A stretch of 63,041 bases of DNA, counting the filler, from Folioceros fuciformis (Eukaryota): the NCBI GenBank assembly GCA_049999805.1. It is 3 parts of 2 records of this genome, joined end to end, with 100 filler letters (N's around TTAATTAATTAA, not from the genome) between each part and the next. Parts side by side here need not be neighbours in the genome. Positions count along the whole stretch, not along the records: positions 32,014 to 57,153 come from JBNGIO010006379.1; 2 more parts are not named here. The stretch is one strand, 5' to 3'. Of this stretch, positions 6,252 to 56,960 are shown one piece after another. The notes below the pieces were generated by a model. That model ran no database searches. It was given only the letters and a program-made list of their open reading frames with translations, and was not told the origin of the DNA. Every line of letters starts with the position of its first letter. Within the stretch, counting starts at the first letter, position 1. The translations under genes and the position numbers were made by a program.

Positions 6252-9257
<3,006 letters not shown>

Positions 9258-32849: not shown

Positions 32850-33368
32850 GGAAATATTTGAGATAGTGAAGGTTTAATTTTGATTATGAGAGTGGTAAAA
32901 TGCAATTAGAGATGTAACTTGAGATGTTAGAAAAGCAAATCGAAAACAGAAAATTAGAGATTTCACAACGTCGTTCACCCGTCATCTTTTAAGCCGTAAG
33001 CTAAGAATCAGGTATATTTTGGATATATAATATTTTAACTTCTCGTATATATCTTGGATTATGCAGATTCCATTTTCTAGAAGTCTGAACATTCAAGATT
33101 GAGCGTCTCCTCGATTCACACAATCTGCACCGATATCCGTGGAGGAGGAAGGAACGAAGTTTGTGCAACTAGTCCATGGCGACTGCTGGGACATGGTGTG
33201 CTTATCCCCAAGACTGCAGCTTCTAATACTCCAGGATTTGTGTTGAGGTTCTGAGAGCATCGCTGAATTCGCGCCATGAATGAACACGTATCGATCACAT
33301 TACAACAGAAAAGGTTGTGCAAAAGTGATTGGTGCACCGACGGTGATCAATGCTACAGAAGGTAGGTG

Positions 33369-34795
33369 TCATGAGCAGGTACTAGGTAAGGATGTCATGA
33401 TCTCGTCCAGGTGATCAGCCAAGGGCGAGTCCAGGTAATCAGCCAAGGACGAGAAATCCAGATCCTGTACAGACGAGTCTTGACCTTCCTGTGTCTGTGA
33501 TGCCGCTGCCCCCGTGGTAGGAGGGAAATCTGGAAATCCATGCGGTACCCTTTGCTTGAGGGCATGCAGGACAGGAAGCATTTCTTCTGATTCCGAGTCG
33601 GAAGAATCAAATGACTGCGTTGGTTGGAGGCCTCTGTAGCTGTACTCGGTCATGACGTAGCGCCATTTCACCTCGCGTCTGCGCTTTCCTGTCCCCTGAT
33701 CAAGCCTCTCTCCGGCTCGAAATATCTCGGCAAGGTCCGATTCATGCCCGGTCCTGGCTAGGGTGGCCTTATAGGAAAAGGACTGCTTCTGAACAATCCC
33801 GTTGTTGGACAATTTTGGAGTGCTCGACTGTCTCCAGGCGAGTTGATCCCTTGTCACACGTTCCGTCTTTCCTTTGCACACCGTTTGGGCTCGGAAGGAG
33901 ATGAAATACAGAGGGGACGGCCCTTTGTGCTCTGTCCAGTGGCAATAACTTGAGAGAATTGTAGTCCGCCGCTTATCTGAATTGAATCAGCTGAAGTTAA
34001 GTTTACCTTTCAGAAGCTCCCAGGGGTGTAATTTATAAAACTCCACGGGTCGTCGACCGGACGCGAAGATCTCCTCTCGCATCCTTTTCCCGCCGGCATC
34101 TTTCGGCCAGGAACTCTCGATAGTATCCAGCATTCGATTTAACGTGTCGGTTTGCTTTGAAGATAGAATGCACTGAAGCACATACAGTAAGTACGTCAGG
34201 CAGGCTGGCGTGATGCAGCGAGAAGGCAATCAGACGTGAGAAGGCCAAGGACCGTTGATAGCAAATCATGGCCGCAATACTCTCGTTAGAACTGCTTCTA
34301 AACGCATTCTATTCTCGAGAGTCTAGGAATCACCTTCAACAGCAGCTGGGATGCTACTTCCTCTTCCTGTGGAGCGGATCCGTGCCACTCCTTGGCATGA
34401 GTCCAAGTGCAGAAGTCGTAGAACCGACAGGCGACATCTGCAAGGGGGACAAGACGGGGCTCAGGGCCCCTTGCTTCAACTATTCATGATTACTCCAGCA
34501 ATGCAATGCAGAATGCACACTAGTATCTACCTTCCTGATAGCTTGCGGCCCTCACAGCTGCAGCCCGATTACATCGGGGGAGCCTGCAGATCGGTCTACT
34601 GCGCTTGGGGCAGCTAGCTGCAACTAGTTGCATCTGCTCAAGAGCGTGACTCTTCGAGCAGAAATTCTTCCCTGGGTAACACGGCTTCCCACATCCCTCT
34701 AGCCGGCACAACTCCAGCTGGCTGCGGAGTATTGCGCTCCATCTGCCTTCATGTTCCTCCAAATCCAAAAGCTCCAAAAAGCTTGACGAAGACAT
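33369..34795 (-). CDS. Divergent NAC-like protein with two N-terminal Cys/His zinc-finger-like motifs; exons 34795-34531, 34437-34334, 34172-34007, 33931-33369; about 365 aa
   Basis: GT-AG splicing gives EFYKLHPWELLK / LYFISFR / ERVTRDQLAWRQSS / KQSFSY / RYVMTEYSY, i.e. NAC subdomains B-D in order; phase-1 intron after PWEL as in canonical NAC genes. Confidence 0.6.
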
Positions 34796-37700
34796 CAGTG
34801 CCAGGATGCAGCTTCTGCATGCACTCTACACTGGACAGGATGACAAACAAGCAACCTTGCTGGAATGTCTCTGGAATGGACGTGCACACTACACTTGGGC
34901 AACTTGGGAAGTATGTAGTCCTCTTCTCCTTCTTAAGCTCCTGGCCTGGCGTGGTCGTCGTTTGACCAGGGGCATCCACAATTTCACGCCTCTCCAGCCG
35001 CAAGTTGCAACTTGCTAATCGCACCAGATTAGTGCGCAGAATCTGATACATTAACATCTGCGTTCCCATTTTTTTTGCTGCTCAAGAACCTGGGCTCCAG
35101 CAGAGCTAGATTCTCGCGTTCTTAATTCCACTCTAATTAGCATGTGGGTACATTCTGCGGGGCGTGATAAGCGCCTTCTGTGTCTGCGCAAGGGAATCTG
35201 ACAGACTGAGAGACACAGACCAGTCGCCACAGAACGGCACACGAATTCACGGTTCAATCCACATACACTAGTAGCCTAAAACTTGCTTTACCATATATAT
35301 GTCGCACATCTCCCGTAGATGCTGCCATTAAACAGCTACATACACATGTAGGATCGCCGAGGGGGAGGTTCCCGGTTCGAATCCCATCCGGGACCGTGAG
35401 GTACAAAAAACTAAAATATAGCGTATCTCCCTTCCCACGATGGGAGAGTTCCCACGATGAAGACGGGTAAACCCGGAAGGCCTCCACAAGCATCACACTG
35501 AACAAAGTGGACAGTTTGGCAACGGAACGGGTGATATGGCGATGATTTGAACCGGCCGGGCCGCGATCTGGCAGGACGGCCAAACGGAACGGGAGCGAGG
35601 GATGATGATGGCCTGGCCGACCCTACCCCACCCCACCCGCCTGCATGCATGCCCGTGGAGGCTATGCATGCCATGATATCTGGCACGGCCCATGAAATGG
35701 AAACTCCAATCCATCATGGGCCTCCAACTGCCGTGCCGTCGCCATCAGCCATCAGCCGGCAACGGGCAACGGGCAACGGGCACAGGGAAACGGGCATCCG
35801 CCGTCGCCCGTTTTGCGTCCCAACCCGGACTCCGCTGTGTTCCGTTGCGCCCAATTTCGCCACCAAACGGGTACGTACAGTATGTTCGCACGCTTGATGA
35901 GAGCCAGTGGACTGTACTGTACCGCGTGGAAGCTCAAGCCAGGGCGACACGATGGGGACGGGAAACTGCTCGCCGCGGCGCCACTCCATCTTTTTTGTTT
36001 TGCTATGCTGGTCACCGCTGTGCCCTAAAAAGGTTGCCCTCGACTTCCTCTGTTCGACTGTCTTGGCCGCTTGCTGTCGGTACTGCAAAGGCGCAACAGG
36101 CCAAACGTCGTTTGTCGTGTCGAAAAATGTTGCTGCGCAGTCCGTTAGCTACACCTAGCCTCAACCCCCTACCTCCTCCACAGAGATGGATTCGAATTCA
36201 ACCTGCTTGGAATTTAGCTGGCTTGGATCTCTTCCTGGACACTGCTGCTGCTCGATACATCCAGAGCAATACGACGGTTACAGTCCACAGTCGCTTGTGA
36301 CAGGCAACTGGTCGCCGCTGCTGACCGAGGATGACACCAGCGCCAACGCTCAAGCAACATCCCTGTGGTGAGGTCACACCCGCACAGTCACATACAATTT
36401 CAAATCTGTGGTCCTGACTGGGACAATGCGGAGCAGATGATGCGTCAGAGCTCGCACGGGAAGCGACAGCGACGAGTTCAAAGCGCTTCCCTTCGACGTG
36501 CGATTCCCTGGCCGCCGTCGCCAGTCCGCCTCCTACTCCGTGACCTTGTACTGCTGCTGCTCTGCCTCTGTGTCTCTGCGTCTGCCCGCCACTCTCACAG
36601 CCAGGTCGTAATTAGGGCGCGGCGACAGCCAGCTGGCCAGAATCCAGATGCTGGACGTCACAGCATGCTGGACGGACGTCCACAGTTAGCAGAATCCGCC
36701 GTATAATTTCCCTATGATTTCCCTATGTATCTTCCTCAAGGCCAGCCCAGATGACTCTCGCACCAGCTTTACACCCTCCCGCCTCCAGGAACCCGGATTG
36801 ACCTGACCATAGGTAGCAAGCCCCTGACAGAATGATAGCATGATCATTTTATTTGCGGCCTGATTATCTATCTACATACGAGCTCCAATCCGACAATGAT
36901 CTTCGAAAACGAGACATGGAGCTTTCCGGAAGCATGAAGTCAAGCGGCAGCTAGCTGACCTTCTTACATGTTTGCTATTTCCACAACAAGGGTGAGCACT
37001 GCAAATACTTGGATACACATGTGTATCTAGATACTACTGCCTCCAGAACCTTCTTCCGGATGTTGTAGACTCAGCGGCAGGCAATACCATAGTCATCTGC
37101 TTCTGCGTGGTGTAGTATCCCTGAACAACAACAAAAGAAAACTTTTCCGGGCGTGTTGCATGTAGGACTCTGTAACATCCGTCCATGTTTGCCGGAGCCA
37201 GTGACAGAGCACCAGTGCCAGAGCATACTGGCAACCCTTTCACACACTGCTTGCACATCAACTAAGCAGTCAGGGAATCTGTGTACCGACACAGCAACAA
37301 GGCCCATACATAAAACATAGTGTACGCCTTCCGTCTCCAGGAGTCTCCAGAGCAGATATCACATCGGACAAGGGCCAGCGAAAACAGCAGGCGCCAGTTC
37401 CTCCTTTTGTGACTGCTCCCGCAAGTCCAGTAAATGCGCAACAAACATCGGAACCGGCGGACGGAAGCCAGCCAGATCTAGTGAGAAAGCGCCAAACCAT
37501 CTGCGGTTACGACAGGACCGGAACTCGGTTGGAAGCGGCCAAGCCCGTCGGGTGTGACCATCCCTGCCCTGCGTCCTCGTCCTGCCAGGGCCCCCGTTCC
37601 AGTCTTGAAGAGAGGAATCAATCTGAGCGCTGAGCGCAGCACAGAGAGCGGGCATACGGCCTGGATCGGGCTTACGCGTCACCGCAGCCAGTGTAGATGA

Positions 37701-38586
37701 AGCAGCCGTTGCCGTTGCGGGACAGTACAGCGTCTCAGCAATTACGCAAATTATTCCTGGCCAAGCCTGCCACTGGCCAGTCCGCCATCATTCAAGCGAT
37801 GTGAGGACAAGCGGCAGGCCTCTGTTCGATGCTGCGCTGCTCCAGCAAGCACGGCTCGCTGCCACAGGCCCCTGGGAATGCACAGTCACAACAGTACCAA
37901 ACACTGGCAACACTACCCGAGCCTTTCTGGCGTCGGAAAGTACAAACCTCACCTCCCCCACCCATGCTCCGCTCTACTCTGCTGCGCTCAAGCCTGGGGC
38001 TGGGAACTCGGCCCACTCCCACCTCCTCCTCCACGCCCAACCACCGGAAGCAAGAGGATTTTCGCGTAGGCGACCTGCCACCCGTGGATGCGAGCGCGCG
38101 AGCGCGCAGCTTAAGACGTCATGCGAATCGCTCCCCCGGTACACCAAGATCCCGGTTTCACTGCCCCTCCGCATTGCATCAAACGCGTGTGGTCTTAGGT
38201 CAAGCCCAAGGGCCTGACGCATTGGGATCATGACTTTGACTCCCGCCATCGCCACCACCTACACCTCCCTTGCCCTATCCCACTTCGTTGCACCGCGCCA
38301 TTTGGCCATGCCCCATCCCCCATCCCTATTGTAGCCTTTGCCTCACATCCCAACACTCCTCTCTGCCACCGCTGGGATTCCAATGCCGTGTAACCCACTG
38401 GGAACTCCATGTCCGTGGAATGTCATCTTCTCCTCCAGCAAGAGTCTTCTTTTCACTTCCTAAAGCTTACATGTCACGAATGTTTTTGTGCCTCACAAGT
38501 TCTGAGTGGTATCACCATTTTACAACTCACTAGAGCATGCCATTGTGTCAACTTGCCTTTGTGAAAGTGAGATCACAGGATGGGTC

Positions 38587-40464
38587 TCAAGGATCATGGT
38601 AAGATAGTATGGAGTGAAGAAGATTGTTGAAACTGATCCCGTTGTTGTTCTTCTTTGCCACATTCTGCAAATGGAGAGTGAGCTTTTGTCCTTCATTTGT
38701 GTCAGGGTCTATTCGCCCAACATTAACCAACCTTCGAATCTGTGCTCCATGTAGTATTGTGCGATGCATATATCCCGGGGCAAGTTTGTGAAAGGAGTGT
38801 TTCATTGCTTCCAAATGTTCATAAGGCATACTTCCTCTCAGCTTGTTTTGAAACTCTTTTTGAAACAACTTTCCATCCTTCTTATCCTTGTCTCTAAGCT
38901 TCCGCATTGGTGCAATCTTTGAATAAATTGATAGGCTAGGATGACGAAGGTTTATTCTTTTGATTGTGAGTGGTTTTATGGGAAGTTTGGTTCCAAGTGG
39001 CTCTCTGGGAAGTACATTGTCTGTAAATCTATTCCAGAAGGTCTTTGAAAATTCGTCAGGTATGTTAGCCATGTTAAACATTTTGTACTCAGCGTCTTCC
39101 AAGGGAGACATGGCACCACTATAAGGGAAATCATTCACCCACTCTCCTTCCCATTTTCTCCTCTTTAATGGCCAACAATATATGCCCCACCCATCTCTTT
39201 GGTCTTTCTTCCATGCACCCATATAGCATCCATCATTTATGTAGTAGTAGGTTCCAATACCATGCTTCCTACCTCGCCACCATTTTCCTTCATAGATGGA
39301 GCCATCTTTGTATTTCATGCAACCATGGCCAAAGTGCTCACCATTTTTCATCTCTCCACGATATTCTTGGCCATTTGTGTGGTACAAACATCCATATCCT
39401 GTTTTCATCCCATACTCCCATTGCCCATCATACAGTAGTCTTAAGGCTCCCTTTCGGGACATCGAATCAGGGACCCAGTGTTGGCCATGCCCATGAGGTA
39501 AACCTCCAACTACATCACCAAGATATCGCCCACCTGCACTACCCCATAGTAACATAGAGCCTGATTCATCATGGTAGTCAGAAGCCTTTTTCTGGATAAT
39601 AACTTTTGCAATGGCTCTGGAGAAGTAATCTGGAGTGAAGGTCCGCATAGATTGCTCAACCAAATGGAGGTTAGGAGCATCTATATCTAAGTGGTAGGAA
39701 GATGGAGGGATGCCTGTGAACCCTCGTCGCCACCTAGGCTTTCTTGTTCTCCAAGGCCACTGAATAGGGGTCTTTGGTCGTGACGAGGGTGGTGTTGGCA
39801 CATCTGACATGGGCCGAGACCCATCCTCTGGTGCTTGCCTCGATGTTTGAGATCGGTTTTCACTTGTGCCAGTGGCTCCAGAGGAACTAGCTCTTCTCTC
39901 GGTAAGTTGAGAAGGGGTCAATTGAGCTGTAGTACTAGACGAACCTCGTGGAGTCCAACCTGTACTAGAAGAGCCTGAAGGAGGGCTGCCTGCTGATGGG
40001 GAAAAGGAAGGAGGACTTTGTGAATTTGATGGAAGACGGGATTGTAATTGATTGAAGACTGAAGGAGATAGAGGTGTGGAACCTCTTGGAATGCTTGATC
40101 CTTGGGTTTGAGGCCTAGAACCTATTGGAGGACTTGAACTAGTGGTCGGAGTAGAACCTTGAGGAGGGCTTGAGTCTGACAACGTAGGTTTGCTTGATCC
40201 TATGGTAGATGGAGTTGATCCAGCTGCATAAATATAACCCTCTAAGTAAGCTCCTTTACTATACTTATCCAGAGTGGTACCAACAAGAGATATTGTAGAA
40301 GTTCTTGGATCAACAAGATCAATCTTTGAATTCTTCCGAGATAAGGAGCTTTTGTGAGAAACACCATTCCCAAGCTCTTGAGCTCTTGATTCATCTACCT
40401 TTGAAGGCAATTTGTCCTTAGAAACTTGTTCTTTATAAGATTGTTTATCTTTATCAAGTTCCAT
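38587..40464 (-). CDS. MORN-repeat protein with Ser/Pro-rich N-terminus, single ORF
   Basis: About six YxGxWxxGxxxGxG repeats (YDGQWEYGMKTGYG, YEGKWWRGRKHGIG, YMGAWKKDQRDGWG); first ATG at 40464. Confidence 0.88.
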   Translation of the reverse strand: MELDKDKQSYKEQVSKDKLPSKVDESRAQELGNGVSHKSSLSRKNSKIDLVDPRTSTISLVGTTLDKYSKGAYLEGYIYAAGSTPSTIGSSKPTLSDSSPPQGSTPTTSSSPPIGSRPQTQGSSIPRGSTPLSPSVFNQLQSRLPSNSQSPPSFSPSAGSPPSGSSSTGWTPRGSSSTTAQLTPSQLTERRASSSGATGTSENRSQTSRQAPEDGSRPMSDVPTPPSSRPKTPIQWPWRTRKPRWRRGFTGIPPSSYHLDIDAPNLHLVEQSMRTFTPDYFSRAIAKVIIQKKASDYHDESGSMLLWGSAGGRYLGDVVGGLPHGHGQHWVPDSMSRKGALRLLYDGQWEYGMKTGYGCLYHTNGQEYRGEMKNGEHFGHGCMKYKDGSIYEGKWWRGRKHGIGTYYYINDGCYMGAWKKDQRDGWGIYCWPLKRRKWEGEWVNDFPYSGAMSPLEDAEYKMFNMANIPDEFSKTFWNRFTDNVLPREPLGTKLPIKPLTIKRINLRHPSLSIYSKIAPMRKLRDKDKKDGKLFQKEFQNKLRGSMPYEHLEAMKHSFHKLAPGYMHRTILHGAQIRRLVNVGRIDPDTNEGQKLTLHLQNVAKKNNNGISFNNLLHSILSYHDP

Positions 40465-42111
40465 ACTTGCCAAGTTGCTAGATCTCAACTTGTGCTGCTA
40501 TATCACCAAATATCACTTGATTATCCTGTGGAAGATGCAATCCTAACTTTGAGATTATCAAGATTGTTAGAGTAGTTTACTTATTTCAATGCAATCTTAG
40601 TGAACAATAGAAATATTCACTCACCTCAAAAGTGCAAGCAGCATAACGTTAAGTTCTCTTTTATCACTCAATGTGGACATGTGTTCAAGTGTTCAATTCT
40701 GGAGTCTCACAACTGCAGCCTTGTTGAAATGTGCTATAAGATCTGAACCAAAAAACAAACAAGAAAAAGAAGACAGCTATGCAAAACTTTGATCAGCAAA
40801 GAAGTAATGCACCACTACGNNNNNNNNNNNNNNNNNNNNNNNNNNNNNNNNNNNNNNNNNNNNNNNNNNNNNNNNNNNNNNNNNNNNNNNNNNNNNNNNN
40901 NNNNNNNNNNNNNNNNNNNGACGAGGCCAAAGGACGCTCCGATGCTTCCGTTTACCCTGCCCTAACGGTTTGGCCAGGGAAGAGTTGTGCCAGTTGCGCC
41001 AATTCGACGAATCCGGTGCCGCGGCCTGCGAACCTTTGTCGGGGCAAGGACAAGGAGGCCACATAACTTCACACAGGTGCTAGCTCCTGCGGCTGCCACC
41101 CATTAAGCCCCCACCTAACACTTCCGTGTCATCCACTTAAATGGGATTGCGACGGCGGGTAAAGCTAGCCCGGGCGGCTGTTCTCCCCTCACCAACAAGC
41201 TTACAAGTGCGCTCCCTGCCCACAGCGCTCGGAGCAGGAAAAGTGGGTAAGTATAGCCTTGGCGCCACCCGCCTCTCTTTCTCCCCGCTTGGGCACCGCA
41301 GCCATCTCTTGGTCCAGTGCAGCTCCCGCGCCCCTGGAGCTCCTTAAGCTGGACCGCCATTGCCCAGCGCTTCTGTGTGCGCCATTTCCCGTCGCTCGCA
41401 TCTGCTGCCTGCCACAAGTATGTGGGCTGCTGAGGTGCAATTTGAGGGAATGTGCTGCTAGGGAGAGGTGTAACCATGTCGCTCTCGCTCTGCGTCCTGC
41501 TCATCGTCGTCTTTCTTCTTCTCTGCGCTACGATGCTGTGCCTGCTCTTTGCCGCGATCTCCTCTGCTGTTCACAACATTCTCAGAGGAGCATTGTTTAG
41601 CTGAGGGAGGCTACGTGAGGCTGCAGAACGTCCTGTAATGAATCAGCTGCATCGCGCTGCTGAGAAGACTCGAATTGCTGCCACCTTCCACTGAGTCGCG
41701 TGTTGTTGTGTTTGCTGGTTCTTTTGAGGGGAAAGAGGGGTGAAAGCGAAGGCTGGAATCTGTGCTTCTTTAGGCGGCCACTTCGGCGTAGGAAATTACA
41801 TGAGGACTGCATGCCTGCGTCGAGTCCTGTCCGGGTACTGCTGAGCTTGTTCTCTTCCGAGCATCTTCCGGCTCTTTCTTTGCGGGGGGAGGCTGCTGAG
41901 GAAGGCTGTCAAGTGGTCGCAGGAGAAGTGACACCGCGTGCCTAAACCTGTGAGGTTCAGGTGTCCAGAGTGCAGGCTTCCCAGCCACTGAACAACGTGG
42001 AGTGTGACCTGATAAATGCGCTTCAGAGTGTGTAGTGTCCTCGGTGCACAACTCGCTACATTCGTTACAATCTGTGAGGTAGATTGCTGAGTCTTCTGGC
42101 TTGCTTCATCG

Positions 42112-45100
42112 ATGGATCAAGGGGGCGGAAAAGTGAACATGCACAGCTCATTGTCGGCCCTGCAACTTCAGGCGGCTGTTCCCTGTTATCCAGCTTTTGA
42201 CGCGAGCTTCAGAGGACCATACGTGTCAGGAGACCGCGATGGTGAGAGTTGTATGGACTCTGTGCTCCGCATTCTCTACCCTCCCTCAGTTGCGGAGAAC
42301 AGCTTCGATCCATCCCCGACGGAAATGAGGTAGAGCCAATTCGATCAGCTCGATGCAAGCATGTGACTACCAACTGATACGCTCGTATCACTTGATGCGC
42401 TTGCTCCCAACTTGAAAGAGAGCTGTCCGGGCATCTCAAGCTTCATACCTTCTTGATCGGACTGCTTGCTCCTTGCTTTTGGAAAATCGTCACTGTGCAA
42501 TGCCGTCACTGTTTCAGCTTAGCTCAGTCTTATCGGTGGCACTCAGCGACTGATTTCTGTGTATTTGTGCCAGTTGGAATAGCGAACTAGACTCAGCGTT
42601 TGTTGCGCCTGGTTTTGATGAACTGGCAGACAGTGTGACGTTCGACATTCGCCGCACACGATTCTACCAGGTAAGGATCTCTTCATGTGGAGGAGTAGAA
42701 GCTTCTTAAGGCCCTCCTTAGATGCGCTCCGTATCAATCAGTTGACAGTTGCTGGCGGTAGTATGGTAGCCGCTGGCTTTCAACGATGCATACTGCAGGT
42801 TCGCAGTGTCATCCAGTCCAGCCTGAGGAAGCCACCCTTTTTGACACCTCCCATCATTGCTCATTCGCAGGGTTACAATATTAATCCCGGAGCTGACATC
42901 TCTCACCAAATGGCCTTTCACCGACGGATACAAGTTCAACAAGTCCCGGGCAACCACAACATCCAGGAGCATATGACATCCGACCAAGGGCTCCCCTCAG
43001 CTCTGCAGAAACTAGTGCAAAAGGTGAACGGAGATCACGAAGACCGTGCTTCAGCTCCTGCAGGCTGTTGCGGCTTTTCAGATGCTTGTCTCATTCAGGA
43101 CGCACTTGATCCTGCCTATTTCAGTTTCTCTTCAGTGACCACGGATGCAGACATGGAGAGCTTGCATTCTTCTGGTCGTGTCACTGACCCTGCTTTAGGA
43201 GGCTCCTACATCCATCAATCTTGCAGGGAGGTCTCCCGTCTGCACTACAACTTCTCAGAGGCTTGCGAGCTAAGTGCGGTGGTGCACAGCAGTATCTCTT
43301 TGCGACACAAGTCCGCAACTGGTTCTCTGGGCAAAGAGCAGAAGAATGGCTCAGGAAACGTTTCTTCAAACTCTGAAGTACATGATGTGGCAAAAGGTTG
43401 CTGCAATCAGGGCTATGGTGGTTTATCCCTGGTTCAACAAGATCTCCAGTTTGACGGATCAAGACAGACTCAGCTCTATATCACATCCCAGGTCTCTGAT
43501 CAGGACCCGACCGTGAACCACCAAAACTGGCCTCTTTCTGATGTAATCTTCAGCAGTAGCGATGCTCCTCGGTCCCCATCAGGTGATCTGGCGTCAGTCT
43601 GTGGGGTACGTCTACCCGCAATGCCAGCAACGACAGATGAAAGAGGACCCTTCCGACGTCTTCAACCTTCAGTTCAAGACACCTCGTGGAACACAGGACT
43701 GTCTGATCATCAATATGGTCTGCCTCAATCAGGGCCCATGTATAATCTTCCCCAAGACGAGCGTACGGTCGGGCTATCAGATTTGTCGAAGGCGCTTATC
43801 CAGAGAGGCAACCAAGGGGCTCATGATATGTTGGCATTGACAACGGACTCTCACCTACGACAAGTTACGACGCTAGCAACTAAGCGGCCCAGGAGGTGCT
43901 CACCAGTTATTTCTGAGTTCGGAGTTTTACCTGTTTTCAGCACCATAGTCTCATCTGAGATCCAGGCTTCCGAGTTCTCTGTCTCTACCGAGAGTAGTAT
44001 GGGCCTGGCACATGTGCAGCCCGGCAGCGACCCCGACGGGAGTATACTCCGACGAAAGCGCAAGGCCGTGAGCGATGAAAGCTCCTGGTTTGGTATTCTG
44101 CATCACGAGTGGTCACCGGCCACAGTACTGAAATGCTCCACAGAGCAAGCGAAGTCAGCCCATGAAGTCTCCATCCAGCAGGTCAGCTCCCATGTGTGCG
44201 CATCTCGACTCACAGTGACGCAAGAATTCCAGCCTGGTACTCCAGAAGGTCGGGAGTTGAGAGCTGCTGCTAGTTCGTTGATGGACTTGTGCACAGAGCT
44301 TGTGCCTCCTGTGCCTCTGGCTATGAGGCGTCCTCCCAAGCTGACAGACTTGGACATGACTCGTCTGATTCAAGCATACAAACAATTGAGTGCGAGTCAT
44401 GTGCTGCGCACACTGCAACAGTTCCCTTTCGTTAAGGAGGCGGACGTTTATTCGGTACATCCCGCAGAACTAATCTCAGGTGAGGTTCCTGCCTTCTTTC
44501 GTGCCGGCACTTCCTGATTGCAGCTAGATTGTTATGGTGGTCGTACTGAATCAATAGACTTCCAGGTACAGGTGCTGGACAATATTTCTTCAGCGAGACT
44601 AAGTATGGGAGCATCAAGAAGCCAACGAGGTTACGCATCACCCAGAATGGTCACCGGTGGAAGCAGCAAGGGAGGACATACGCCATTCAAGAAGGAGGAC
44701 GAACTGTGGCTTTCAAAACATATTTGAGTTACGTTCCCCTTAAAAACAACGGGAAACAGGTTTACCCTCAAATCTCCTCAGGTCCAGAAGAAACCAAGAG
44801 CTGCAGTTCGGCACATGGGGACGGACACGTTGGCGTGCCCCTGGCTGTTCCTGTTTCAGCACCTCTAAGCACGACTGCACTCCGGTGTGTGAAGCAGACA
44901 CAGCCTGCTTCTTCTAATAAGCAAAGCACAGAAAAGGGGGACCCTTCTACCTGGGTATGCTCAAAACTGGCTCCTCATAGGAAGTGGGCATTGTGGACGA
45001 TGGAGGAAATTGCTTTAGCCGAGGACGTGGAGATGGAAAGGAGAACATTCAAGAGAGGTGGGCTCCCAAGACCTTTCCCTGTGCTGTGCAAGATAGGGTG

Positions 45101-45377
45101 TAGAACCCCTGTGGAAGAGCATGGATGCCGCTCCCAGGAAATCCCATTCGCAGTGCCGATAACTCCACCTCCTCAGAATCCCTTGATCCAGGCAAGAACA
45201 AGAAAACTTCGGCAGCATGTCAGAAGAGTTGCCAAGAAGGCACGCTACACATGTTCTACTGTTACCATAGCGACACCACCGCCGTCGGTTGGGCGAACAG
45301 AAGGCTCTTCAACAAACGGAACTTATGGTGGAGCCCCATTTCGTGATCCGGCAACATCCGGTAACTTTCTTTTGTGA
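42112..45377 (+). CDS. Divergent NAC-like protein with domain in the C-terminal third; exons 42112-42329, 42574-42670, 42799-44479, 44566-45377; about 935 aa
   Basis: Spliced product reads PKLTDLDMTRLIQAY / VKEADVYSVHPAEL / QYFFS / RLRITQNGHRWKQQGRTYAIQEGGRTVAFKTYLSY / WTMEEIAL / PVLCKI, i.e. NAC A-E; phase-1 intron after subdomain B; RRKRK NLS-like motif. Confidence 0.75.
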
Positions 45378-46374
45378 TGCGTGAGGCCCTGCTGCCTACA
45401 GATGGACCAATAACGCTTTGGATGTTTGCATGTATGTCTGCGGACCTGGAGATGACATTGGCAGATGCGATCAAGAGTAGATGTTTTATTGTGCCAGGAG
45501 GAGTGGATGACAAACCGCCTTTCTAGTTGTTCTGATTCCATTAGCTTATGTTGCCAGCTCTAGTATTTCGTGTAAGGCAGCTCAGCAGATGTTTTCGGAG
45601 GCTGGCACGTTGTACTGTTTTTAACATATATTAATATTGTCTGCGCTTCGAAGTTAAGGTTGATATCGTTAGTGCTCAATACTACTACGAGCCAGCACAT
45701 AGACTTGCAGCAGAGGCAACCACGAGGAGGACTTTGGTGCCGTAGCAAAACAAACTTCTGGCGCTCCCTTCTGATAACATCGGAAGGTGTTGTTAAGGTC
45801 TGCGAGAAATTGAACTCACTTGCAGGGCATTGAATTTTCATCTATTCTGCAAGATTTCGCTGGAGATCTGGGAGCGGGAACGAAACTCTCAACTTTTACG
45901 AATCTGCGAGCAGTCTCGACTAGCGTGTCTTAGTGGGTCCAAAGCGCAAAGCTGTGTAACACCTCAAGCTTTCCGACATAGAAAATGTTACATAAACGCG
46001 TTTGTATGTATCTAAATCTCTGGAAATTCCCTTGACATGCTGGCTTACAGTGTAAGAACACCAAGAAAATTTCCAACTATGTACAGTGCTCAACTCCTTA
46101 CAACTACTGGGGCCTTGTCTCCGGTACGAAAGTGCGAGTATGCTGTTCCACCATGACCCGAGTGTGTGATGCAGGAGGAGCCTTCAAGGATGATGTGTGA
46201 TCTGAATGACCAAAGGCATGTAGATGTATGTTTCTTTGGGAGCAGATATACAGTATGCTGATATATTGGGCCCAATGCATGTATTTATTGTCATAAGTTA
46301 CATGCTGAGAATGTACAGTTGCAGAGTGTTCGGGTTCGGAGGACTAGAAATCCTGAGGCCTGCCTGTACACCGG

Positions 46375-48193
46375 TCAAAATCTGAGAGCACATATGACCG
46401 GGTACGACTCAGGCTCTTTGGCCTGCTTGAGGATCTTCCTCTCTTTGTCCGCGTCGTCCTCTAGGAAGATCTCATACATCTGATATCTGTTTTTCCTACC
46501 ATTCTTCTTAGGCTTGTTTCGACTCGATCTGCTGGCCATGTCTTCCTGTTCGCCGTCCGACTTCTGGACCCTTGAATTTGCTGCCGTCCTGGCTTGTCGA
46601 CGGCCCACGCAGTTTCGTAGTCCAAAACTGAAGTAGGTTTTGCCGTACCTTACTCCAGCATGGCGGAAGAACTTGGTTTTGCCTCGCTGCATCCACCTTC
46701 TGGCTTGGGCCGCGCATGAGCCCCTCAAGCGACCGAGTGGAGCAGACCGGCATCTTGTAATCTTCCTGCCGTTATTCACGGTGCTGTAGCTAGTGTTGAC
46801 GACGAAAAACGCGGGGCTCTTCGTCTGCCGGGAGAACTCTGCAATTCCAACACAGCAGCTGGTGCCCATCACAAACTGTAGATGTCTCACTCCGACAGAA
46901 GCAAATAAGCGAGGCATAATTGAAGACTGGCCGGCCTGTCCAGAACGCGAACTTGAAAAGCATACCGTCAAGGCGTTCTTCGGTGAAGCCATAGATATCC
47001 TCGTGGTTGAAAACGTGGGCGTCCTCCTCCACGTGATGATCCCATTCGCCGACTTTCCTCCTCCGAGCGTTGAGCAAGAACTCCACAAGCATATCGTCTG
47101 GTATGGCGTGCCAGGAGGATGGTGATATCCCTCCTGAGCTTGCCTCCGACATCTTCAACCCCTCATCCTCATCCTCATCCTCATCCTCATCTTCATCTTC
47201 ATCCTCATCCTCATCCTCATCCTCATCCTCATCCTCATCCCGATCCCGTTGAGATTCTTGTTGCACTGTATCGATGGATCCCTACATTGTCAAGTCACGG
47301 AAGGAGTGACGTGAGCATCGTAAGCAACTTCAACACAACTCACATTGTACACCCTAGGCCCTACACGCTTTACTATCTTCACTTCGCCACACGGCGCCGT
47401 GCTGCGACGTGACACATTACTGTAACAGCGATGAAATTACCGGATGCTCTGCCTTCACTTCGGTAGAGAGGTGCGATAACAGCATGGAAGTCGCTTTCGG
47501 CCTCCGGCATTTCTTATCCCTCGACTTTTTCGGCACGACCGGTTGTGGCGAGCCGGAAAAGCCATCTTCTTCAACCGGCTTGGGTCCGAGTCCGAGTTCC
47601 GACCCGGACCCGAACCCGGACCCGGACTCGAGGTCGCCGTCCTCCCCCAACACCTCCTTCATGCAAGGATTAACAATGTCCTCGACATCGAGGTTGAGCT
47701 CCTGGTCCAGGTCCAGGTCGCTCGACAACTGCTCCCATCTCTGCGGCACAGATCCCACCAGCGCTGCACCAGGGAGCTCTCCCACAGGCAACGCGCTCTC
47801 GCTACTATCGCAGCTGAAACCGGCCCAGGCCTCGTGCCCAGGCGATTCCAGCAGCCAGGAAATAATGCGAAGCATATCATGATCGTCCGCCTGTCGCTCA
47901 TCCAGAGCCGTCACTTGCGGCTCACGCTCCGGATCTTCCACAAGGCAGGAGGTGGCAAATGCGATCCCTTCCTCGTCATCGAACACCGCCTCCGCCCCCG
48001 GCACAGCGGAAAGCTCACCTGGCTGGCACTCGACCTCACACCAGCTGTAGAGGCACTCAGGTACCAGCGTCTGCACCTTAGGCAGCAGGTGCGAGTAGAA
48101 GTGAGTGGCTCCATGAGCGGAGGCCGACAGCCCCGACACAAATTGCTCCACCAGCTTGGAGCTGGCCGACGCCGCCTTCTCGTCCACCAACAT
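46375..48193 (-). CDS. Divergent NAC-like protein with acidic N-terminus and C-terminal domain; exons 48193-47441, 47281-46966, 46838-46375; about 510 aa
   Basis: IPDDMLVEFLL / HEDIYGFTEERL / AFFVV / RRWMQRGKTK / GKTYFSF / NRYQMYEIFL / PVICAL, i.e. NAC A-E; both introns GT-AG and frame-preserving. Confidence 0.7.
47161..47246 (-). repeat. (GATGAG)n coding repeat, poly-DE tract
   Basis: cctcat repeats on the plus strand, inside exon 2 of the 46375-48193 gene. Confidence 0.9.
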
Positions 48194-49271
48194 GGCTGTG
48201 CTCTAGCTCTTGATCCTCCGCTACGCAATGCGCCTCCTGCGATTGCTTTGAGCTGGTCGCGGCCCAGCCGCCGGAAGCAACGGTCATAGTCGCTGGTGGC
48301 GACTAGCCACCGGAGCGTCAAAGTACCGGCATCCGCTGCCCGCCTTGCCCTGCCCTGCCCTACGGGCTGCAGCGGAGCGGGCAGCAGTGGCGACGCAGCT
48401 CATCATGTAAGGGTCGGTACATGGGCCTATGTATGTACATACATCTGCCGCATTACGTTACTCGGACACGTGTAACAACGCCCCGTCGCCTTTGCTCTCG
48501 GCTTTCACGCTTTATTTCACGTTCGCGGAGCGTGCACCGCCGCCGCCTCACGCGCACCTTTTAACCCCCACAAATTACAATGCGTACAGTGGTATTGGCC
48601 CTCCTGTATCCCGCCTTCTAATTTTTCATTTCACGTCTCTGCGGAAATGCATTCCCACGAAAACACTACGGTCTCCCGTATGGTTCACAAGCTGGGAAAA
48701 CACACTTTATCCTGCTTATCATTTTTTCTTATGAAACCATCTTGTCCTCTCTATACCCGGAGATCTGGTCCATAGGTGCATAGAGCACTAGAGATGTTAT
48801 GCACCGATAGCTTCCTTTATGACTAACCTTGGAAAGACCAACACCATGTCATTGAGAACCAACCCCATGGACCGAACTGGAAGAAGTTCCATCACACTTG
48901 GTGCTAAGAAGCTAGAGCCAATGAAAATCTATTGGTACCCTATTGTCATGAGGCAACTGTCGTAAATAGCATAGTAAGGGGAGAAGTGTGCTTATGCGCC
49001 ATGAGCACATGTTTACTTAGAAGAAAAGCCTAGCTTTTATTCACAGGCTTACACAGTACATGCCACAGATTATGGTTATAACCTAACTAGGATCACAATA
49101 GCAAGTTATTCAGCCTGTAATTGCGGATGATTGAGCACCACCACAACCTATCCGTGACAACTGATCCCGGGGGGAAGAGGCTTCAACCTCAAAGCCAAGG
49201 AGCTATAGTGTATGATCGCAAGCACAGGCACGGAGTAGGTCAGGAGAATGGGAGAGGTTGGCAAGGGGTTC

Positions 49272-52499: not shown

Positions 52500-55400
52500 C
52501 ATGGCTGGCTCCCTAGGCTCCGGTGGCATCCCTAGCCATATTCTGGCAGGGGTTCTATTCGGTGGGCCAGCAACGGCCTCCTCAGGCACACCTTCAGCAT
52601 CCTCGACCTCCAAAGTGCTTGCAGCATCAACTCTCGGCGCCACATCTTCGAACCCTGCGAATACCACTTCGACCACAATTACGGCAACTACTTCTCCACA
52701 ACGCCGTTTCCCACTTTCCCCTCCTTTATGCCAGGAACAGGTTTTTCCAGTGCGCCAGGAGCGGGATTTTTCAATCCTCTTCCAAGCTATGGAGCTGGTC
52801 CCGGGAATTCTTTGCCTATGACAGGAGTTGGATTCGCCAACCCGTTGTCGAACCTTGGAGCTGGATATGGAAATCCCTTGCCTGGGCTAGGACTTGCTTA
52901 CGGGCCTCCTCCGCCTGCCTTGCCAGGATCGGGAGCAGGCTTTAATTTTCCTATACAAGCATATACACCAATTTATCAGCCATCGTATACAGTTGAGTTC
53001 AAGGAGCGGGATAGGTTCAATGGAAACAAATACCCCGTGTGGAGCGTGCGCATGCAAGCAGCACTTGATGCTAGGCACGTATGGGGCGTTGTGAGCGGAC
53101 ACTTCCAACAACCTGGAGCTACCGCAAATCAATTCAATAAGGACAGATGGGACAACGCCAACAACGTGGCTCGAGCTCTCCTAATAAGCGGCCTTGACGA
53201 GGTACTAGTTCCAGATGTTGCCTATTTAGCTAAAGCTGAGGATATATGGAACCAGCTTTCGCAGACATATGATGTGAAAAATATACTAACCTTATGTGCT
53301 GTAAGAAGTGAGCTTTTCTCTCTTCGTATGCGTGACAATGAAAAGGCAACTGTTATTGTGGGGAAGTTTAGGCACCTTAGATCACAGCTGATTTTATTAG
53401 GGTCTACTATGTCGGACTTAGATGCTGTAGCCCAACTCCTTACAAGTCTTCCTTCAAGCTATCAGCCTTTTGTCTCTAGCTGCGGAGCCTCGCTTAGAGA
53501 TGCAGGCAGAGCCGCAACTACAGGACACATAGTGCAGATTATCTTCACCGATGTTGTAGGAGCCTTGTTCCAAGAAGAGCAATCACGTAGTGGTTCTCAT
53601 TCCCATTTTGGGGGTACCAAAACAGATAAAGTCCTTTTTACCTCTAAACCTCGTTCACAACACAAGGGTAGAAACTTCTCTACACCTAGCACATCTAAGG
53701 CTGGAAACACCAAGCCAAGTCAAACCAAGAGGGTTGGAGCCTGCAACTGGTGCGGCTCTCCCGGCCATTGGGAGCGGGAGTGTCATAAAAAGAAAAATGG
53801 AGAACCTAAGAAGGCCGAGAAGACTTATAGAGGGGCTGAGGCCAACACAGTTTCCAAGGACAAGACAACACAAGGCAAACAGCCCGTTGTGATGACGACT
53901 TGCTTGTCCACATCCAAGCCTCCCAAGACACATGATGCTTGGTACTTGGATTCTGGGGCTACATCTCACATCTATAACAACAGAAGTTTGATGAGTAATT
54001 GTACTCCCGCAAATACATCTGAGAAGGTGCTGTTAGGTGACGAGCTCACCTGTTTAGGCCTAAAGATTTTGGGGAAGGGTACTTGTCATTTTCTTAAGCC
54101 AGATGGTAGCCTCATTCGGCTTGATGACGTTTTATATGTTCCTAACATGGCCAAGCACTTGTTATTTGTTAGTCAACTTATGCACATGAAGTGTTTTGAT
54201 CTAACCTTTACGCCTTTTAGCTGCTTGCTAACCACCAGGGGCCCAACGAGTTCCGTGGTGGCCAGAGGCCTTTTAGAGCATGATCTCTATAGGTTAGACC
54301 TTTCATGTGCGCCTGCTAGAAGTGCTCATGTTGCTTCACAGTCACAAGCCCACCTAGCTCAGCTTTGGCATGCTAGACTAGGACATGCTAACAAGGACAA
54401 GCTCCTTAAGATGTCTAAGTTAGAATGCTATAGAGAGCCCTTACCTAGGTGCTTTAAGGAACTTCCTTTGTGCGACTCTTGCATAGTTGCAAAGCAAAAG
54501 GAGTTACCCTTTCCTACCAATGTCGCTTTTAGGTCAGCTAACATCCTAGATCTTGTCCATGCTGATATATCTAGCAAGATACATGTTCCCTCTCTTGGTG
54601 GCTCCCTCTATTATTTAATAATAACAGATGACTTTAGCCGCTATTCTTGGACATACCCAATGAAGAGGAAATCAGAGACCTTCCAATTCTTCAAAGAATG
54701 GATCATCATGGTTCAAAGGCAAACAGGATGTTACCTCCGATGCTTGAGGGCAGATAATGGTAGTGAGTTTGTTAACTCTCCATTTAATGATTACCTTGCA
54801 GCTCAAGGGATCACACGTCAGCTAAGTATCTCATATACTCAACAACAAAATGGAGTAGCTGAGCGCTGCAACCAGACCTAGCTCAACATGACACATGCCA
54901 TGCTAGCTTGGTCAGGCCTCAGCAACGCCTACTGGGCGGAGGCAGTTGTTACTGCCACATATATCTTGAATCGACTTCCAACAATAGCTGTGCCTAATCG
55001 CACTCCTTTTGAAGTGATGTGGAAGCGGAAACCAAGTCTACTTCACCTCAGGGTATTCGGCTCACCAGCTTACGCCTATATCCATTCAGAACAGCGTAGG
55101 AAGCTCAAGGATAGGGCAAGACCTTTGGTTTTCATTGGTTATGGAGAAGAAACCAAGGCATATAAACTCTATGACCCTCCTACTCGATCGTTGATTTTTG
55201 CTCAGAGCGTCACATTCAAAGAGCTTGTCAAGCCTGTGCTTACGACTTTTGCTTTGGATTCTGAGTTCGTTACTTCTTCTCCATCGGCACCTGATTCACC
55301 TACAACTATTGACCTTGATTTTGATGACTCCCCCTCCGAGTATCCACAAGATGCTTTCTATGAACTGCCCGTGTCTTCTTCGGTAGCTGGCAGTTCAGGG

Positions 55401-56182
55401 GGTGGATTTCCAGCATCTATAGTACCATTGATACCTACGTTGCCGCCCTCCCAACCTACTATTGTTTCACCTACTAACCCTACTGATGTTGAAGAGCACG
55501 AAGCAGATCATGTTTCTGAGCCATAGCCACTTGAGTAGGACACACTTGAGCAACTTGAAGCAAATCCTCTTTCTGATAAGGATCTTGAACCAGGTGCAAA
55601 CGCTGATCAGGATGACCAAGTTCTTGACTTGACCGATGATGTTGTCAATACAGAACCAGATGGTGCTCCCATTCAAGTTGAACCTATTGTTGAGGAAAGG
55701 AGATATCCAAGCCGGTCTCGTCCATCTCGAGATAGCTGGACTTCCGGACCCTATAAGTTAGAGGACTTCCGTCTCCCACGATCTGCTAGGCTATGTGAAG
55801 CCTCCTCCACCAGCACACCTCACCCAGCAAAACCTCAAACCTACAAGGAGGCTATAAAAGGTGCACACAGACACCATTGGCTTCCATCAATTCAAGACGA
55901 GTATGACTCCTTGATGAAGAATGAAACATGGGAACTTTGCCCCTTACCTGCTGGAAGGAAAACGGTGAGCTGCAAGTGGGTGTTCAAACATAAGCTGAAC
56001 GCACAAGGGGACATAGCACGTTACAAATCACGTCTTGTTGCTCGCGGCTTCTCACAAGTAGCAGGTGTGGACTTCAACGAAACTTTCAGCCCTGTCGTAA
56101 AGACACAATCCATTAGGATGATCCTAGCCCTTGCAGCTGCTAGAGACTGGGATCTGGAGCAAATGGATATCTCAACAGCCTT
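52500..56182 (+). mobile_element. Ty1/Copia gag-pol, truncated within RT
   Basis: CNWCGSPGHWEREC knuckle, WYLDSGA, WHARLGH, QQNGVAER, KSRLVARGFSQ; stops at 54879 and 55524; no LTR identified. Confidence 0.9.
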
Positions 56183-56960
56183 AAAGTGCGAATTCCAACA
56201 AGAATGCTTGGAGTACTTGGGGCACATTATTGATGTTGAAGGCATCCGTGTAGACCTTGTTAAAATTCAGGTTATTAGGGACTGCATCCGTGTAGACCCT
56301 ACTAAAATTCAGGTTATCAGGGTTCCTTAGCAAGTATAAGATGTGTTTCTCGGTCTTGCATCATATTATCGTAAGTTTGTTTCACAATTTGCTCATATGG
56401 TTGCCAGACTTAGAATTGAGGTGGCCCTCAAGATAACGCTTTTCGAGCTATCCACATTGCTTTGGTGAGTGCTCCCGTATTGGCACAATCAAGTTGCTTA
56501 TGCAACCCAAATCCAACCTTCCCTTGGATTGTGATGACGCTTAATCCAATCCGAATCCAACCTTCCCTTCTATTGTTACAACTAATGCCTCAGATCTTGC
56601 GATTGGTGCGGTCCTTCAATAAGTCTAAGGCCAAGGCTGCCAACCAATCGCTTACTTCTCACGGAAGTTGAAGGGTGCCAAGTGGAATTGGATCACCACT
56701 AAGAAGGAGACTCTAGCTCTAGTCTTGGCTTTAAAAACATGGCATTGTTTTCTAGAGTGTGCCCCTTTTAAGCTTGAGATCATTGCCCTCTTGTTTACTT
56801 CCAAACGGAGCCCACTCTCTGTCGCAAGCAAGCTCGGAATTGCTAAAGTAGCTCAAGCCACCAGGCCCCAATTGATATTGGTATTGAATACCAATATCAA
56901 ATTCCATATGTTAAGGGTCATCATAATCAAGTTGCTAATGCATTAAGTAGAATTCAGACT
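56183..56960 (+). mobile_element. Decayed Ty3/Gypsy RT-RNase H fragment
   Basis: KCEF...YLGHII, FLGLASYYRKFV, TNASDLAIGAVL, KETLALVLALKTW. Confidence 0.8.

What the first reader, a model, noticed from the sequence alone, without database searches (positions are those of the whole stretch)
33369..48193. Cluster of three very divergent NAC-like genes with non-canonical architecture
Seen: three spliced genes within 15 kb whose products show NAC subdomain-like motifs in the correct order. All three have a phase-1 GT-AG intron directly after the subdomain-B motif (PWELLK|, HPAELIS|, EERLD|). Established: canonical NAC factors have an N-terminal domain, a WKATG recognition motif and an intron at that position. 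Here the domain is central or C-terminal, the motif is WRQSS, WKQQG or WMQRG, and subdomain D carries an insertion. Inference: a lineage-specific, fast-evolving NAC subfamily with altered DNA specificity, easily missed by annotation.
Basis: partly seen in the sequence, partly recalled or inferred. Interest (0 to 1): 0.8.

Follow-up and report, generated by a model that had tools for sequence, protein, structure and literature searches.

The report
Three divergent NAC transcription-factor genes
Three neighbouring plant genes encode very divergent versions of the NAC DNA-binding domain; one belongs to an old, already annotated but unstudied clade (Marchantia MpNAC10), so this is a modest extension of a known family.

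Summary
The observation largely holds. Gene 1's junction has no cover. Gene 2 (911 aa) has relatives in Marchantia (named MpNAC10), Calypogeia, Diphasiastrum and Selaginella. Four of them pass Pfam NAM's cut-off (33-44 bits, cut-off 27). A model of the Diphasiastrum relative matches only NAC crystal structures (13 of 13 Foldseek hits at E<=0.001). Gene 3 is a clear distant paralogue (45-49 bits against the gene-2 clade profile, 0 of 500 shuffles; hhalign E 3e-6). Gene 1 is a weaker one (16.5 bits, E 2.7e-7 for one target, only with a 75-nt intron). Neither is seen by Pfam. The domain is not N-terminal, WKATG is replaced by WKQQG, WMQRG or WRQSS, and a long loop separates subdomains D and E. 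The reading 'lineage-specific and missed by annotation' fails for gene 2, whose clade spans liverworts and lycophytes and is labelled NAC in databases. It may hold for genes 1 and 3. DNA binding and altered specificity are inferred, not shown.

The parts
41324..45856 (+). Gene 2 transcript as covered by one 4003-nt contig of run X1
   Evidence: table 8, record 3. The contig joins across three GT-AG introns.
42112..42329 (+). Gene 2 CDS exon 1 (start codon at 42112)
   Evidence: The longest ORF of the spliced contig is 911 aa. The joint 42327/42572 has GT..AG ends.
42574..42670 (+). Gene 2 CDS exon 2
42871..44479 (+). Gene 2 CDS exon 3. It encodes a long N-terminal region with no relatives, then NAC subdomains A and B from about 44332, ending in HPAELIS plus one base (phase 1).
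   Evidence: No Pfam family was found. No homologue was found among 8000 scored candidates.
44566..45377 (+). Gene 2 last exon. It holds NAC subdomains C to E (to about 45104), the WKQQG motif at 44658-44672, a D-E loop insertion of about 90 aa, and the stop codon.
   Evidence: Pfam NAM scores 20.1-20.9 bits, E 5e-4 to 9e-4, below the cut-off of 27. The piece aligns with P0001-P0006.
47441..48193 (-). Gene 3 exon A (start codon at 48193), an acidic N-terminal region with no known domain
   Evidence: ORF and predicted GT-AG intron 47440-47282. A contig covers 47622-47881. Pfam finds nothing.
46966..47281 (-). Gene 3 exon B. It holds a poly-Asp/Glu run, then NAC subdomains A and B from about 47131, ending in EERLD plus one base (phase 1).
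   Evidence: The contig joint 46838/46966 has CT..AC ends, which is GT..AG on the minus strand.
46375..46838 (-). Gene 3 exon C. It holds NAC subdomains C to E, WMQRG at 46695-46681, and the stop at 46375-46377. The spliced product is 510 aa.
   Evidence: It scores 45-49 bits against the gene-2 clade profile. hhalign gives E 3.3e-6.
34531..34795 (-). Gene 1 putative exon 1, holding a Cys-rich module and the first part of a second one
   Evidence: Model from GT-AG sites with matching phases. A contig covers 34676-34871. There is a weak Pfam CxC6 hit, E 0.0079 and below its cut-off.
34334..34437 (-). Gene 1 putative exon 2
   Evidence: It has no RNA cover.
34007..34172 (-). Gene 1 putative exon 3. 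It holds NAC subdomains A and B, ending in PWELLK plus one base (phase 1).
   Evidence: It has no RNA cover.
33369..33931 (-). Gene 1 putative last exon under the 75-nt intron model. It holds NAC subdomains C to E, WRQSS at 33836-33822, and the stop at 33369-33371. The model product is 365 aa.
   Evidence: It scores 16.5 bits, E 2.7e-7 with Z=1, and 0 of 500 shuffles reach that. The atlas's nearest clusters are all NAC. Pfam finds nothing.

Best explanation
The region holds three paralogous genes for highly divergent NAC (NAM, PF02365) domain proteins. Gene 2 belongs to an old land-plant clade whose Marchantia member is annotated MpNAC10. Genes 3 and 1 are more diverged local duplicates. Shown: homology among the three, the NAC fold of a clade member, and splicing of genes 2 and 3. 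Inferred: they act as nuclear, sequence-specific DNA-binding regulators that place the edge strand of the NAC beta-sheet in the major groove. In ORE1 the base-contacting residues of WKATG are Lys102 and Thr104 (PMC10203392, passages). Here Lys is kept and Thr becomes Gln in gene 2. In gene 3 Lys becomes Met and Thr becomes Arg. In gene 1 Lys becomes Arg and Thr becomes Ser. A different target sequence is therefore expected. The long N-terminal regions, and an acidic run in gene 3, would take the regulatory role that the C-terminal region has in canonical NACs.
For: Family search: a profile of the three C-to-E exon pieces found 5 proteins at E<=0.001 among 1.84 billion representatives. Of these five, P0002, P0003 and P0005 pass Pfam NAM at 34.9, 43.9 and 39.2 bits (cut-off 27). 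P0001, which lacks the N-terminal part, scores 19.0 bits. P0004 has no hit. P0006 scores 33.2 bits.

Names: MpNAC10 for the Marchantia cluster and 'NAC domain-containing protein' for Selaginella.

Solved structures: the clade profile hits 3 distinct PDB sequences at E<=1, and all are NAC domains (3ulx E 0.0031, 1ut4 0.072, 3swm 0.076).

Fold: the AlphaFold model of P0003 has ten-residue block pLDDT means of 85-98 over most of residues 71-170 and 201-240, with one block (91-100) at 72. It gives 13 Foldseek matches at E<=0.001, all NAC chains with TM(target) 0.54-0.72; the next match has E 0.025.

Gene 3: 48.9 bits against the gene-2 clade HMM, 0 of 500 shuffles reach it (maximum 4.7), E 3.3e-16 at Z=1. 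hhalign gives probability 88% and E 3.3e-6.

Gene 1: 16.5 bits, 0 of 500 shuffles reach it (maximum 6.2), E 2.7e-7 at Z=1, and the alignment runs across the junction. The language-model neighbours are NAC clusters (0.90, 0.88, 0.88; 10 of the ten best share one family).

Gene structure: an exon split of A-B then C-E occurs in known NAC genes (PMC4488383, passages).
Against: None of the window's own pieces reaches Pfam's NAM cut-off. Gene 2's last exon scores 20.1-20.9 bits. The exons of genes 1 and 3, and gene 1 read through with X at the stop, give no NAM hit even at E<=10. The spliced products themselves could not be scanned or folded.

Gene 1 is the weak point. hhalign of its last exon against the clade gives E 0.033 and probability 1.6%. 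I chose the intron model among three in-frame options (30, 75 and 84 nt) and scored two of them (30 and 75 nt). Its fold model is poor (mean pLDDT 59) and was built with the family alignment. It gives no Foldseek match at E<=0.001, although ranks 1-11 and 13 are NAC chains at E 0.007-0.24. The atlas recognition value is 2080, below 2300, so that hit counts only as a lead.

Gene 3's last exon has no atlas neighbour (0.76).

The tool marks run X1's RNA status as a guess. DNA binding, dimerisation and nuclear location are untested.
Confidence: 0.75

Rival explanations
1. One reading: one lineage-specific, fast-evolving NAC subfamily that annotation misses.
For: Genes 1 and 3 escape Pfam. They have at most one database relative, P0004 for gene 3. 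Between the same pair of sources, gene 3 and P0004 share 37% identity while gene 2 and P0001 share 52%. Gene 1 and gene 3 sit on very long tree branches.
Against: Gene 2's clade is present in two liverworts and two lycophytes. It carries PF02365 hits and NAC names in public records.
Confidence: 0.3
2. Gene 1 is a decaying pseudogene copy rather than a working gene.
For: An in-frame TGA lies between its two NAC-like ORFs unless a 30-nt or 75-nt intron is removed. No contig covers that part. It is the most diverged of the three (17-21% identity; branch length about 10). Its motif WRQSS has also lost the Gly.
Against: A complete four-exon model has GT-AG introns of 93, 161 and 75 nt, matching phases and a 365-aa open frame. 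A 205-codon open frame follows the junction. The 75-nt model restores continuous similarity across the junction.
Confidence: 0.3
3. The proteins keep the NAC fold but no longer read DNA sequence. They would act instead as dimerising partners or inhibitors of other NACs, above all genes 3 and 1.
For: The base-contacting Lys and Thr of WKATG are both replaced in gene 3 (Met, Arg). In gene 1 Lys becomes Arg and Thr becomes Ser, and the Gly is lost (residue roles from PMC10203392, passages).
Against: Basic residues around the motif are kept: TRLRIT..RWKQQGR in gene 2 and TRCR..RRWMQRGK in gene 3. The strand itself is among the best conserved parts of the clade.
Confidence: 0.15
4. The similarity to NAC arises by chance, or reflects another fold of the WRKY/GCM type.
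For: The window's pieces stay below Pfam's cut-off. Single-sequence phmmer against PDB found no NAC.
Against: Orthologues pass the cut-off. The clade profile and the model hit only NAC structures. Shuffle controls give 0 of 500.
Confidence: 0.05
5. They are members of the VOZ family, which combines a zinc finger with a C-terminal NAC-like domain.
For: [quoted passage not shown] Gene 1's model carries Cys-rich modules upstream of the NAC-like part.
Against: The profile search returned only 5 proteins, whereas VOZ proteins are common in vascular plants (my own knowledge). The Marchantia member is named NAC, not VOZ. Genes 2 and 3 have no Cys-rich module. No VOZ sequence or model was available for a direct test.
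Confidence: 0.05

Closest known systems
The MpNAC10 clade: Marchantia polymorpha MpNAC10 (P0008/P0002), Calypogeia fissa (P0006), Diphasiastrum complanatum O6H91_03G103800 (P0003) and Selaginella moellendorffii D8QQ31 (P0005)
   Same: Gene 2 shares 38-51% identity with these over the domain. It shares the motifs ADVY..HP, YFF..TKY, RWKQQG, KTYLSYVPLK, WTMEEI and PFPVLC(K/R)I. The domain is not N-terminal, and a variable D-E loop is present.
   Different: Gene 2 has a far longer N-terminal region (about 590 aa, against 75-315) and the longest D-E loop. Genes 3 and 1 share only 17-28% identity with the clade and change the motif further.
Canonical NAC domains: ANAC019 (1ut4, 3swm), ORE1/ANAC092 (7xp3) and rice SNAC1 (3ulx)
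   Same: The fold is the same: a clade model matches these and nothing else at E<=0.001. The order of subdomains is the same. An RPxR-like basic loop and the Trp-Lys of the recognition strand are shared. An intron lies between subdomains B and C.
   Different: The domain is not N-terminal. WKATG becomes WKQQG, WMQRG or WRQSS. Two residues are inserted before the motif, and ten more in gene 3. The D-E loop is long. The usual second intron between D and E is absent, because C to E lie on one exon. The GFRFHP strand of subdomain A is barely recognisable.
NAC genes whose domain is split A-B then C-E and does not start in exon 1 (for example JcNAC094-096 of Jatropha; PMC4488383, passages)
   Same: The exon layout of the domain is the same.
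   Different: No sequences were compared, so relatedness is untested.
VOZ transcription factors
   Same: A NAC-like domain lies downstream of another region. Gene 1 also has Cys-rich modules in front of it.
   Different: No direct test was possible. The searches found no VOZ-sized family.

Membership tests
NAC / NAM (Pfam PF02365) | Score at or above Pfam's gathering cut-off (27 bits): gene 2 | tested here: inconclusive
   The last exon alone scores 20.1-20.9 bits. The spliced protein could not be submitted. Four clade relatives with the whole domain score 33.2-43.9 bits.
NAC / NAM (Pfam PF02365) | Score at or above Pfam's gathering cut-off: gene 3 | tested here: not met
   There is no NAM hit at E<=10 for either exon or for its relative P0004. 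Only exons were tested, not the spliced product. Gene 3 is linked to NAC only through the gene-2 clade.
NAC / NAM (Pfam PF02365) | Score at or above Pfam's gathering cut-off: gene 1 | tested here: not met
   There is no NAM hit at E<=10 for the exons or for the read-through with X at the TGA.
NAC / NAM (Pfam PF02365) | The NAC fold: a twisted antiparallel beta-sheet flanked by helices | tested here: met
   This was tested on the Diphasiastrum relative P0003, not on a window product. All 13 of 13 Foldseek matches at E<=0.001 are NAC chains. The gene 1 read-through model is weak (pLDDT 59): ranks 1-11 and 13 are NAC chains, but at E 0.007-0.24.
NAC / NAM (Pfam PF02365) | Subdomains A to E in order | tested here: met
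   B, C, D and E align in all three genes and in the clade. Subdomain A is recognisable only as the helix, matched by Pfam from profile position 9-12 in the relatives.
NAC / NAM (Pfam PF02365) | The conserved WKATG(T/K)D recognition motif | tested here: not met
   The motifs are WKQQG, WMQRG and WRQSS. The clade has W(K/R)QQG.
NAC / NAM (Pfam PF02365) | Domain at the N-terminus with the regulatory region C-terminal | tested here: not met
   The domain spans aa 593-821 of 911 in gene 2, 302-510 of 510 in gene 3, and about 131-305 of 365 in the gene 1 model.
NAC / NAM (Pfam PF02365) | Intron between subdomains B and C | tested here: met
   Contig joints show it in genes 2 and 3, both phase 1. 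In gene 1 it is predicted only. The canonical layout comes from PMC4488383 (passages). The exact position and phase in canonical NAC genes were not compared.
NAC / NAM (Pfam PF02365) | Dimeric, sequence-specific DNA binding | not testable with these tools
   This needs DAP-seq, EMSA or SEC-MALS.
VOZ | Conserved zinc-finger Domain-B followed by a NAC-like region | not tested
   No VOZ sequence or model was at hand. The only support is the architecture likeness of gene 1.

The most novel reading that the evidence does not exclude
The MpNAC10 clade is an ancient branch of the NAC superfamily. It is kept in bryophytes and lycophytes but not found here in seed plants, and it has a rewired recognition strand. 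In this genome it has produced a local trio that is diverging fast enough for two members to have left Pfam's reach, each with a different pair of base-contacting residues, and so with new DNA specificities. One member (gene 1) has independently gained a Cys-rich module in front of the domain, as VOZ proteins have.
Probability: 0.3. Interest if true: 0.55.

Novelty: new member of a known kind. Interest (0 to 1): 0.35.

Why it matters
[quoted passage not shown] One recent study lists nine Marchantia NACs (MpNAC1-9; PMC12085091, passages), although public records also name an MpNAC10. The MpNAC10 clade and its still more diverged local duplicates show that the family's sequence range, domain position and recognition motif are wider than the canonical picture. 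They also offer natural variants for asking how the WKATG strand sets DNA specificity. This refines a known family and does not define a new kind of system.

Tried and rejected
- phmmer of the three C-to-E exons against PDB gave 0, 0 and 19 weak rows (E>=0.11), none of them NAC.
- Gene 2's 536-aa N-terminal exon had no homologue among 8000 scored candidates.
- No whole genome is held for this window.
- The look-up of sequencing runs listed no holder on record as RNA. X1 is 'RNA?' by the tool's guess.
- X2 and X3 laid nothing on the region. Gene 1's NAC-like part and most of 33000-41300 had no contig cover. I do not count either as evidence for or against expression.
- Word-index searches with clade alignments recovered only 4 and 3 proteins already known or closely related, and missed the Selaginella protein. 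They say little about how widely the clade is spread.
- A maximum-likelihood tree of seven domain sequences was unresolved: 0 of 4 inner branches had support.
- The atlas look-up for gene 3's last exon gave nothing, with a best score of 0.76.
- Earlier-findings look-ups by place, by sequence and by words returned nothing.
- The 30-nt intron model for gene 1 was rejected in favour of 75 nt, on length and on profile score.
- I could not map the organism of the window. I could not check whether P0001 and P0004 lie on one contig; each is listed on a single contig of 8890 bases.
- Supplementary tables of PMC12085091 and PMC4488383 were not opened. They may list whether MpNAC10-type genes were included.
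Full report
**Setting.** The window is eukaryotic and plant-like. It holds three Copia-type retroelement stretches, a glycosyl hydrolase family 1 exon, a nitroreductase ORF and a MORN-repeat ORF. There are eight runs of N. No whole genome is held for it.

**The observation.**
- One public run (X1) holds 76% of the sampled words of 42600-47300.
- On 33000-48500, five of its contigs were laid and showed four joints, all with GT..AG ends. The tool only guesses that X1 is RNA. Contigs that lack GT-AG-bounded stretches are what spliced transcripts give.
- Gene 2 (plus strand) has introns at 42330-42573, 42671-42870 and 44480-44565. Its spliced ORF runs from 42112 and is 911 aa.
- Gene 3 (minus strand) has a confirmed phase-1 intron at 46965-46839, right after EERLD. 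With a predicted upstream intron (47440-47282) its product is 510 aa, starting at 48193.
- Gene 1's NAC-like part is not covered by any contig.
  - Its two ORFs share one frame and are separated by one TGA.
  - In-frame GT-AG introns of 30, 75 or 84 nt are possible.
  - A full model has four exons, introns of 93, 161 and 75 nt, and a 365-aa product.

**Are they NAC? Direct tests on the window's pieces are weak.**
- Pfam NAM hits only gene 2's last exon: 20.1-20.9 bits, E 5e-4 to 9e-4, against a cut-off of 27.
- The exons of genes 1 and 3 give nothing at E<=10. Gene 1 read through with X at the stop also gives nothing.
- phmmer against PDB sequences finds no NAC.

**Indirect tests are strong for gene 2.**
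- A profile of the three C-to-E exon pieces (A1) was run against 1.84 billion representatives. It found five proteins at E<=0.001.
- P0002, P0003 and P0005 carry the whole domain and pass Pfam NAM at 34.9, 43.9 and 39.2 bits. P0001 lacks the N-terminal part and scores 19.0 bits. P0004 has no hit. A sixth protein, P0006, scores 33.2 bits.
- Their sources are Marchantia polymorpha (a cluster member is named 'protein MpNAC10'), Diphasiastrum complanatum, Selaginella moellendorffii (UniRef: 'NAC domain-containing protein') and Calypogeia fissa. P0001 and P0004 are unnamed.
- The clade profile hits only three distinct PDB sequences at E<=1, and all are NAC domains.
- In the AlphaFold model of P0003, ten-residue block pLDDT means are 85-98 over most of residues 71-170 and 201-240, with one block (91-100) at 72. 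All 13 Foldseek matches at E<=0.001 are NAC chains, and the next match has E 0.025. This fold test is on a relative, not on the window's protein.

**Genes 3 and 1.** An HMM was built from gene 2's spliced domain plus P0002, P0003, P0005 and P0006.
- Gene 3 (spliced) scores 48.9 bits on its C-terminal 220 aa, and 0 of 500 shuffles reach it (maximum 4.7). The full product scores 45.5 bits, E 3.3e-16 for one target. hhalign of gene 3 plus P0004 against the clade gives probability 88% and E 3.3e-6.
- Gene 1 under the 75-nt model scores 16.5 bits. No shuffle of 500 reaches it (maximum 6.2), and E is 2.7e-7 for one target. The alignment runs across the junction.
- Gene 1 under the 30-nt model scores 7.4 bits, and 1 of 500 shuffles reaches that.
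- Against gene 1:
  - hhalign of its last exon alone gives E 0.033 and probability 1.6%.
  - I chose the intron model after the fact.
  - Its fold model is poor (pLDDT 59), was built with the family alignment, and has no Foldseek match at E<=0.001. Ranks 1-11 and 13 are nevertheless NAC chains.
- As a lead only, the protein atlas puts gene 1's last exon nearest to NAC clusters (0.90, 0.88, 0.88). It gives nothing for gene 3's last exon.
- No fourth copy was found among 1543 six-frame ORFs.

**Anatomy compared with canonical NACs.**
- The alignment to ANAC019 and SNAC1 pairs ADVY..HP..L with DLYKFDPW.LP, YFF..TKY with WYFF.PRDRKY, RPTR with RPNR, and RWKQQG with WKATG.
- The tail PFPV(L/I)C(K/R)I aligns weakly with VLCRI (-1.6 and -1.4 bits).
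- The ORE1-DNA structure paper (PMC10203392, passages read) names Arg91, Lys102 and Thr104 as the base-contacting residues. Lys102 and Thr104 lie in WKATGKD.
  - Gene 2 keeps the Lys and has Gln for Thr.
  - Gene 3 has Met and Arg.
  - Gene 1 has Arg and Ser, and loses the Gly.
- The domain is central or C-terminal.
- The D-E loop is long, about 90 aa in gene 2. In the modelled relative P0003 the corresponding loop is shorter and of low confidence (blocks 171-200, pLDDT 50-66).
- C to E lie on one exon, so the usual second NAC intron is absent. The A-B then C-E layout is known in some NAC genes (PMC4488383, passages).
- That these changes alter DNA specificity is inference.

**What is known already.**
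- A 2024 survey lists nine Marchantia NACs, MpNAC1-9, all placed in canonical groups (PMC12085091, passages).
- The term MpNAC10 occurs in no paper of the searched library.
- So the clade is labelled in sequence databases but, as far as these searches reach, unstudied. Whether it lacks seed-plant members is not settled, because the word-index searches were insensitive.
- VOZ proteins are a precedent for a NAC-like domain downstream of a zinc finger (PMC12652378, passages). No direct test against VOZ was possible.

**Verdict.** The finding is a real cluster of three NAC-domain paralogues. Gene 2 is a member of the annotated MpNAC10 clade. Gene 3 is a secure divergent paralogue. Gene 1 is a probable divergent paralogue that may be decaying. 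'Lineage-specific and missed by annotation' is wrong for gene 2 and open for genes 1 and 3. The novelty is modest.

Noticed in passing
window 38587-40497 (-): A single 636-aa open frame with MORN repeats (Pfam MORN 43.9 bits, 5 stretches) lies between gene 1 and gene 2. No contig of X1 covers it.
   Followed up: no
window 34334-34795 (-): Upstream exons of the gene 1 model carry two similar Cys-rich modules of the pattern C-x4-C ... FC-x3-H. The only hit is a weak Pfam CxC6 match (E 0.0079, 16.9 bits against a cut-off of 27.5). A 196-nt contig of X1 covers 34676-34871. A zinc-binding module in front of a NAC-like domain would parallel VOZ proteins.
   Followed up: partly
window 47153-47253 (-): A coding GA-rich repeat gives a run of about 30 alternating Asp and Glu residues in gene 3, just upstream of its NAC-like domain. 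The read-laying tool skipped it as a repeat, so contig cover is cut there.
   Followed up: no
window 41324-42111 (+): The gene 2 contig starts 788 nt upstream of the first ATG of the long ORF. This is either an unusually long leader or a merger with an upstream transcript.
   Followed up: no
window 35600-38250, contig at 37123-37697: This G+C-rich stretch (54-55%) has long overlapping open frames on both strands and one 575-nt X1 contig. The one frame tested (35677-36300) has no Pfam family. It looks like a transcribed unit of unknown nature.
   Followed up: no
window 11283-13960 (-), 52536-56330 (+), 58656-62842 (+): Three Copia-type LTR retrotransposon stretches carry gag, protease barrel, integrase and RVT_2 domains. 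The first two are broken into several frames.
   Followed up: no
window 4087-4788 (+), 7463-8461 (+): A nitroreductase-family ORF (93.6 bits) and a glycosyl hydrolase family 1 exon (135 bits) lie here.
   Followed up: no
P0001 and P0004 (unnamed Logan proteins): The gene-2-like and gene-3-like proteins of another organism are each listed on a single contig of 8890 bases. They may be neighbours there too, which would date the gene 2/gene 3 duplication before the split of the two organisms.
   Followed up: no
C-termini of the gene 1 model (33369-33460), P0003 and P0006: By eye, all three end in a short acidic-hydrophobic motif (D/E-rich, then spaced hydrophobic residues, then Pro). In the P0003 model this is a helix at 304-314 of moderate confidence (block pLDDT 65-66). 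It may be a shared activation or interaction motif. No statistical test was made.
   Followed up: no
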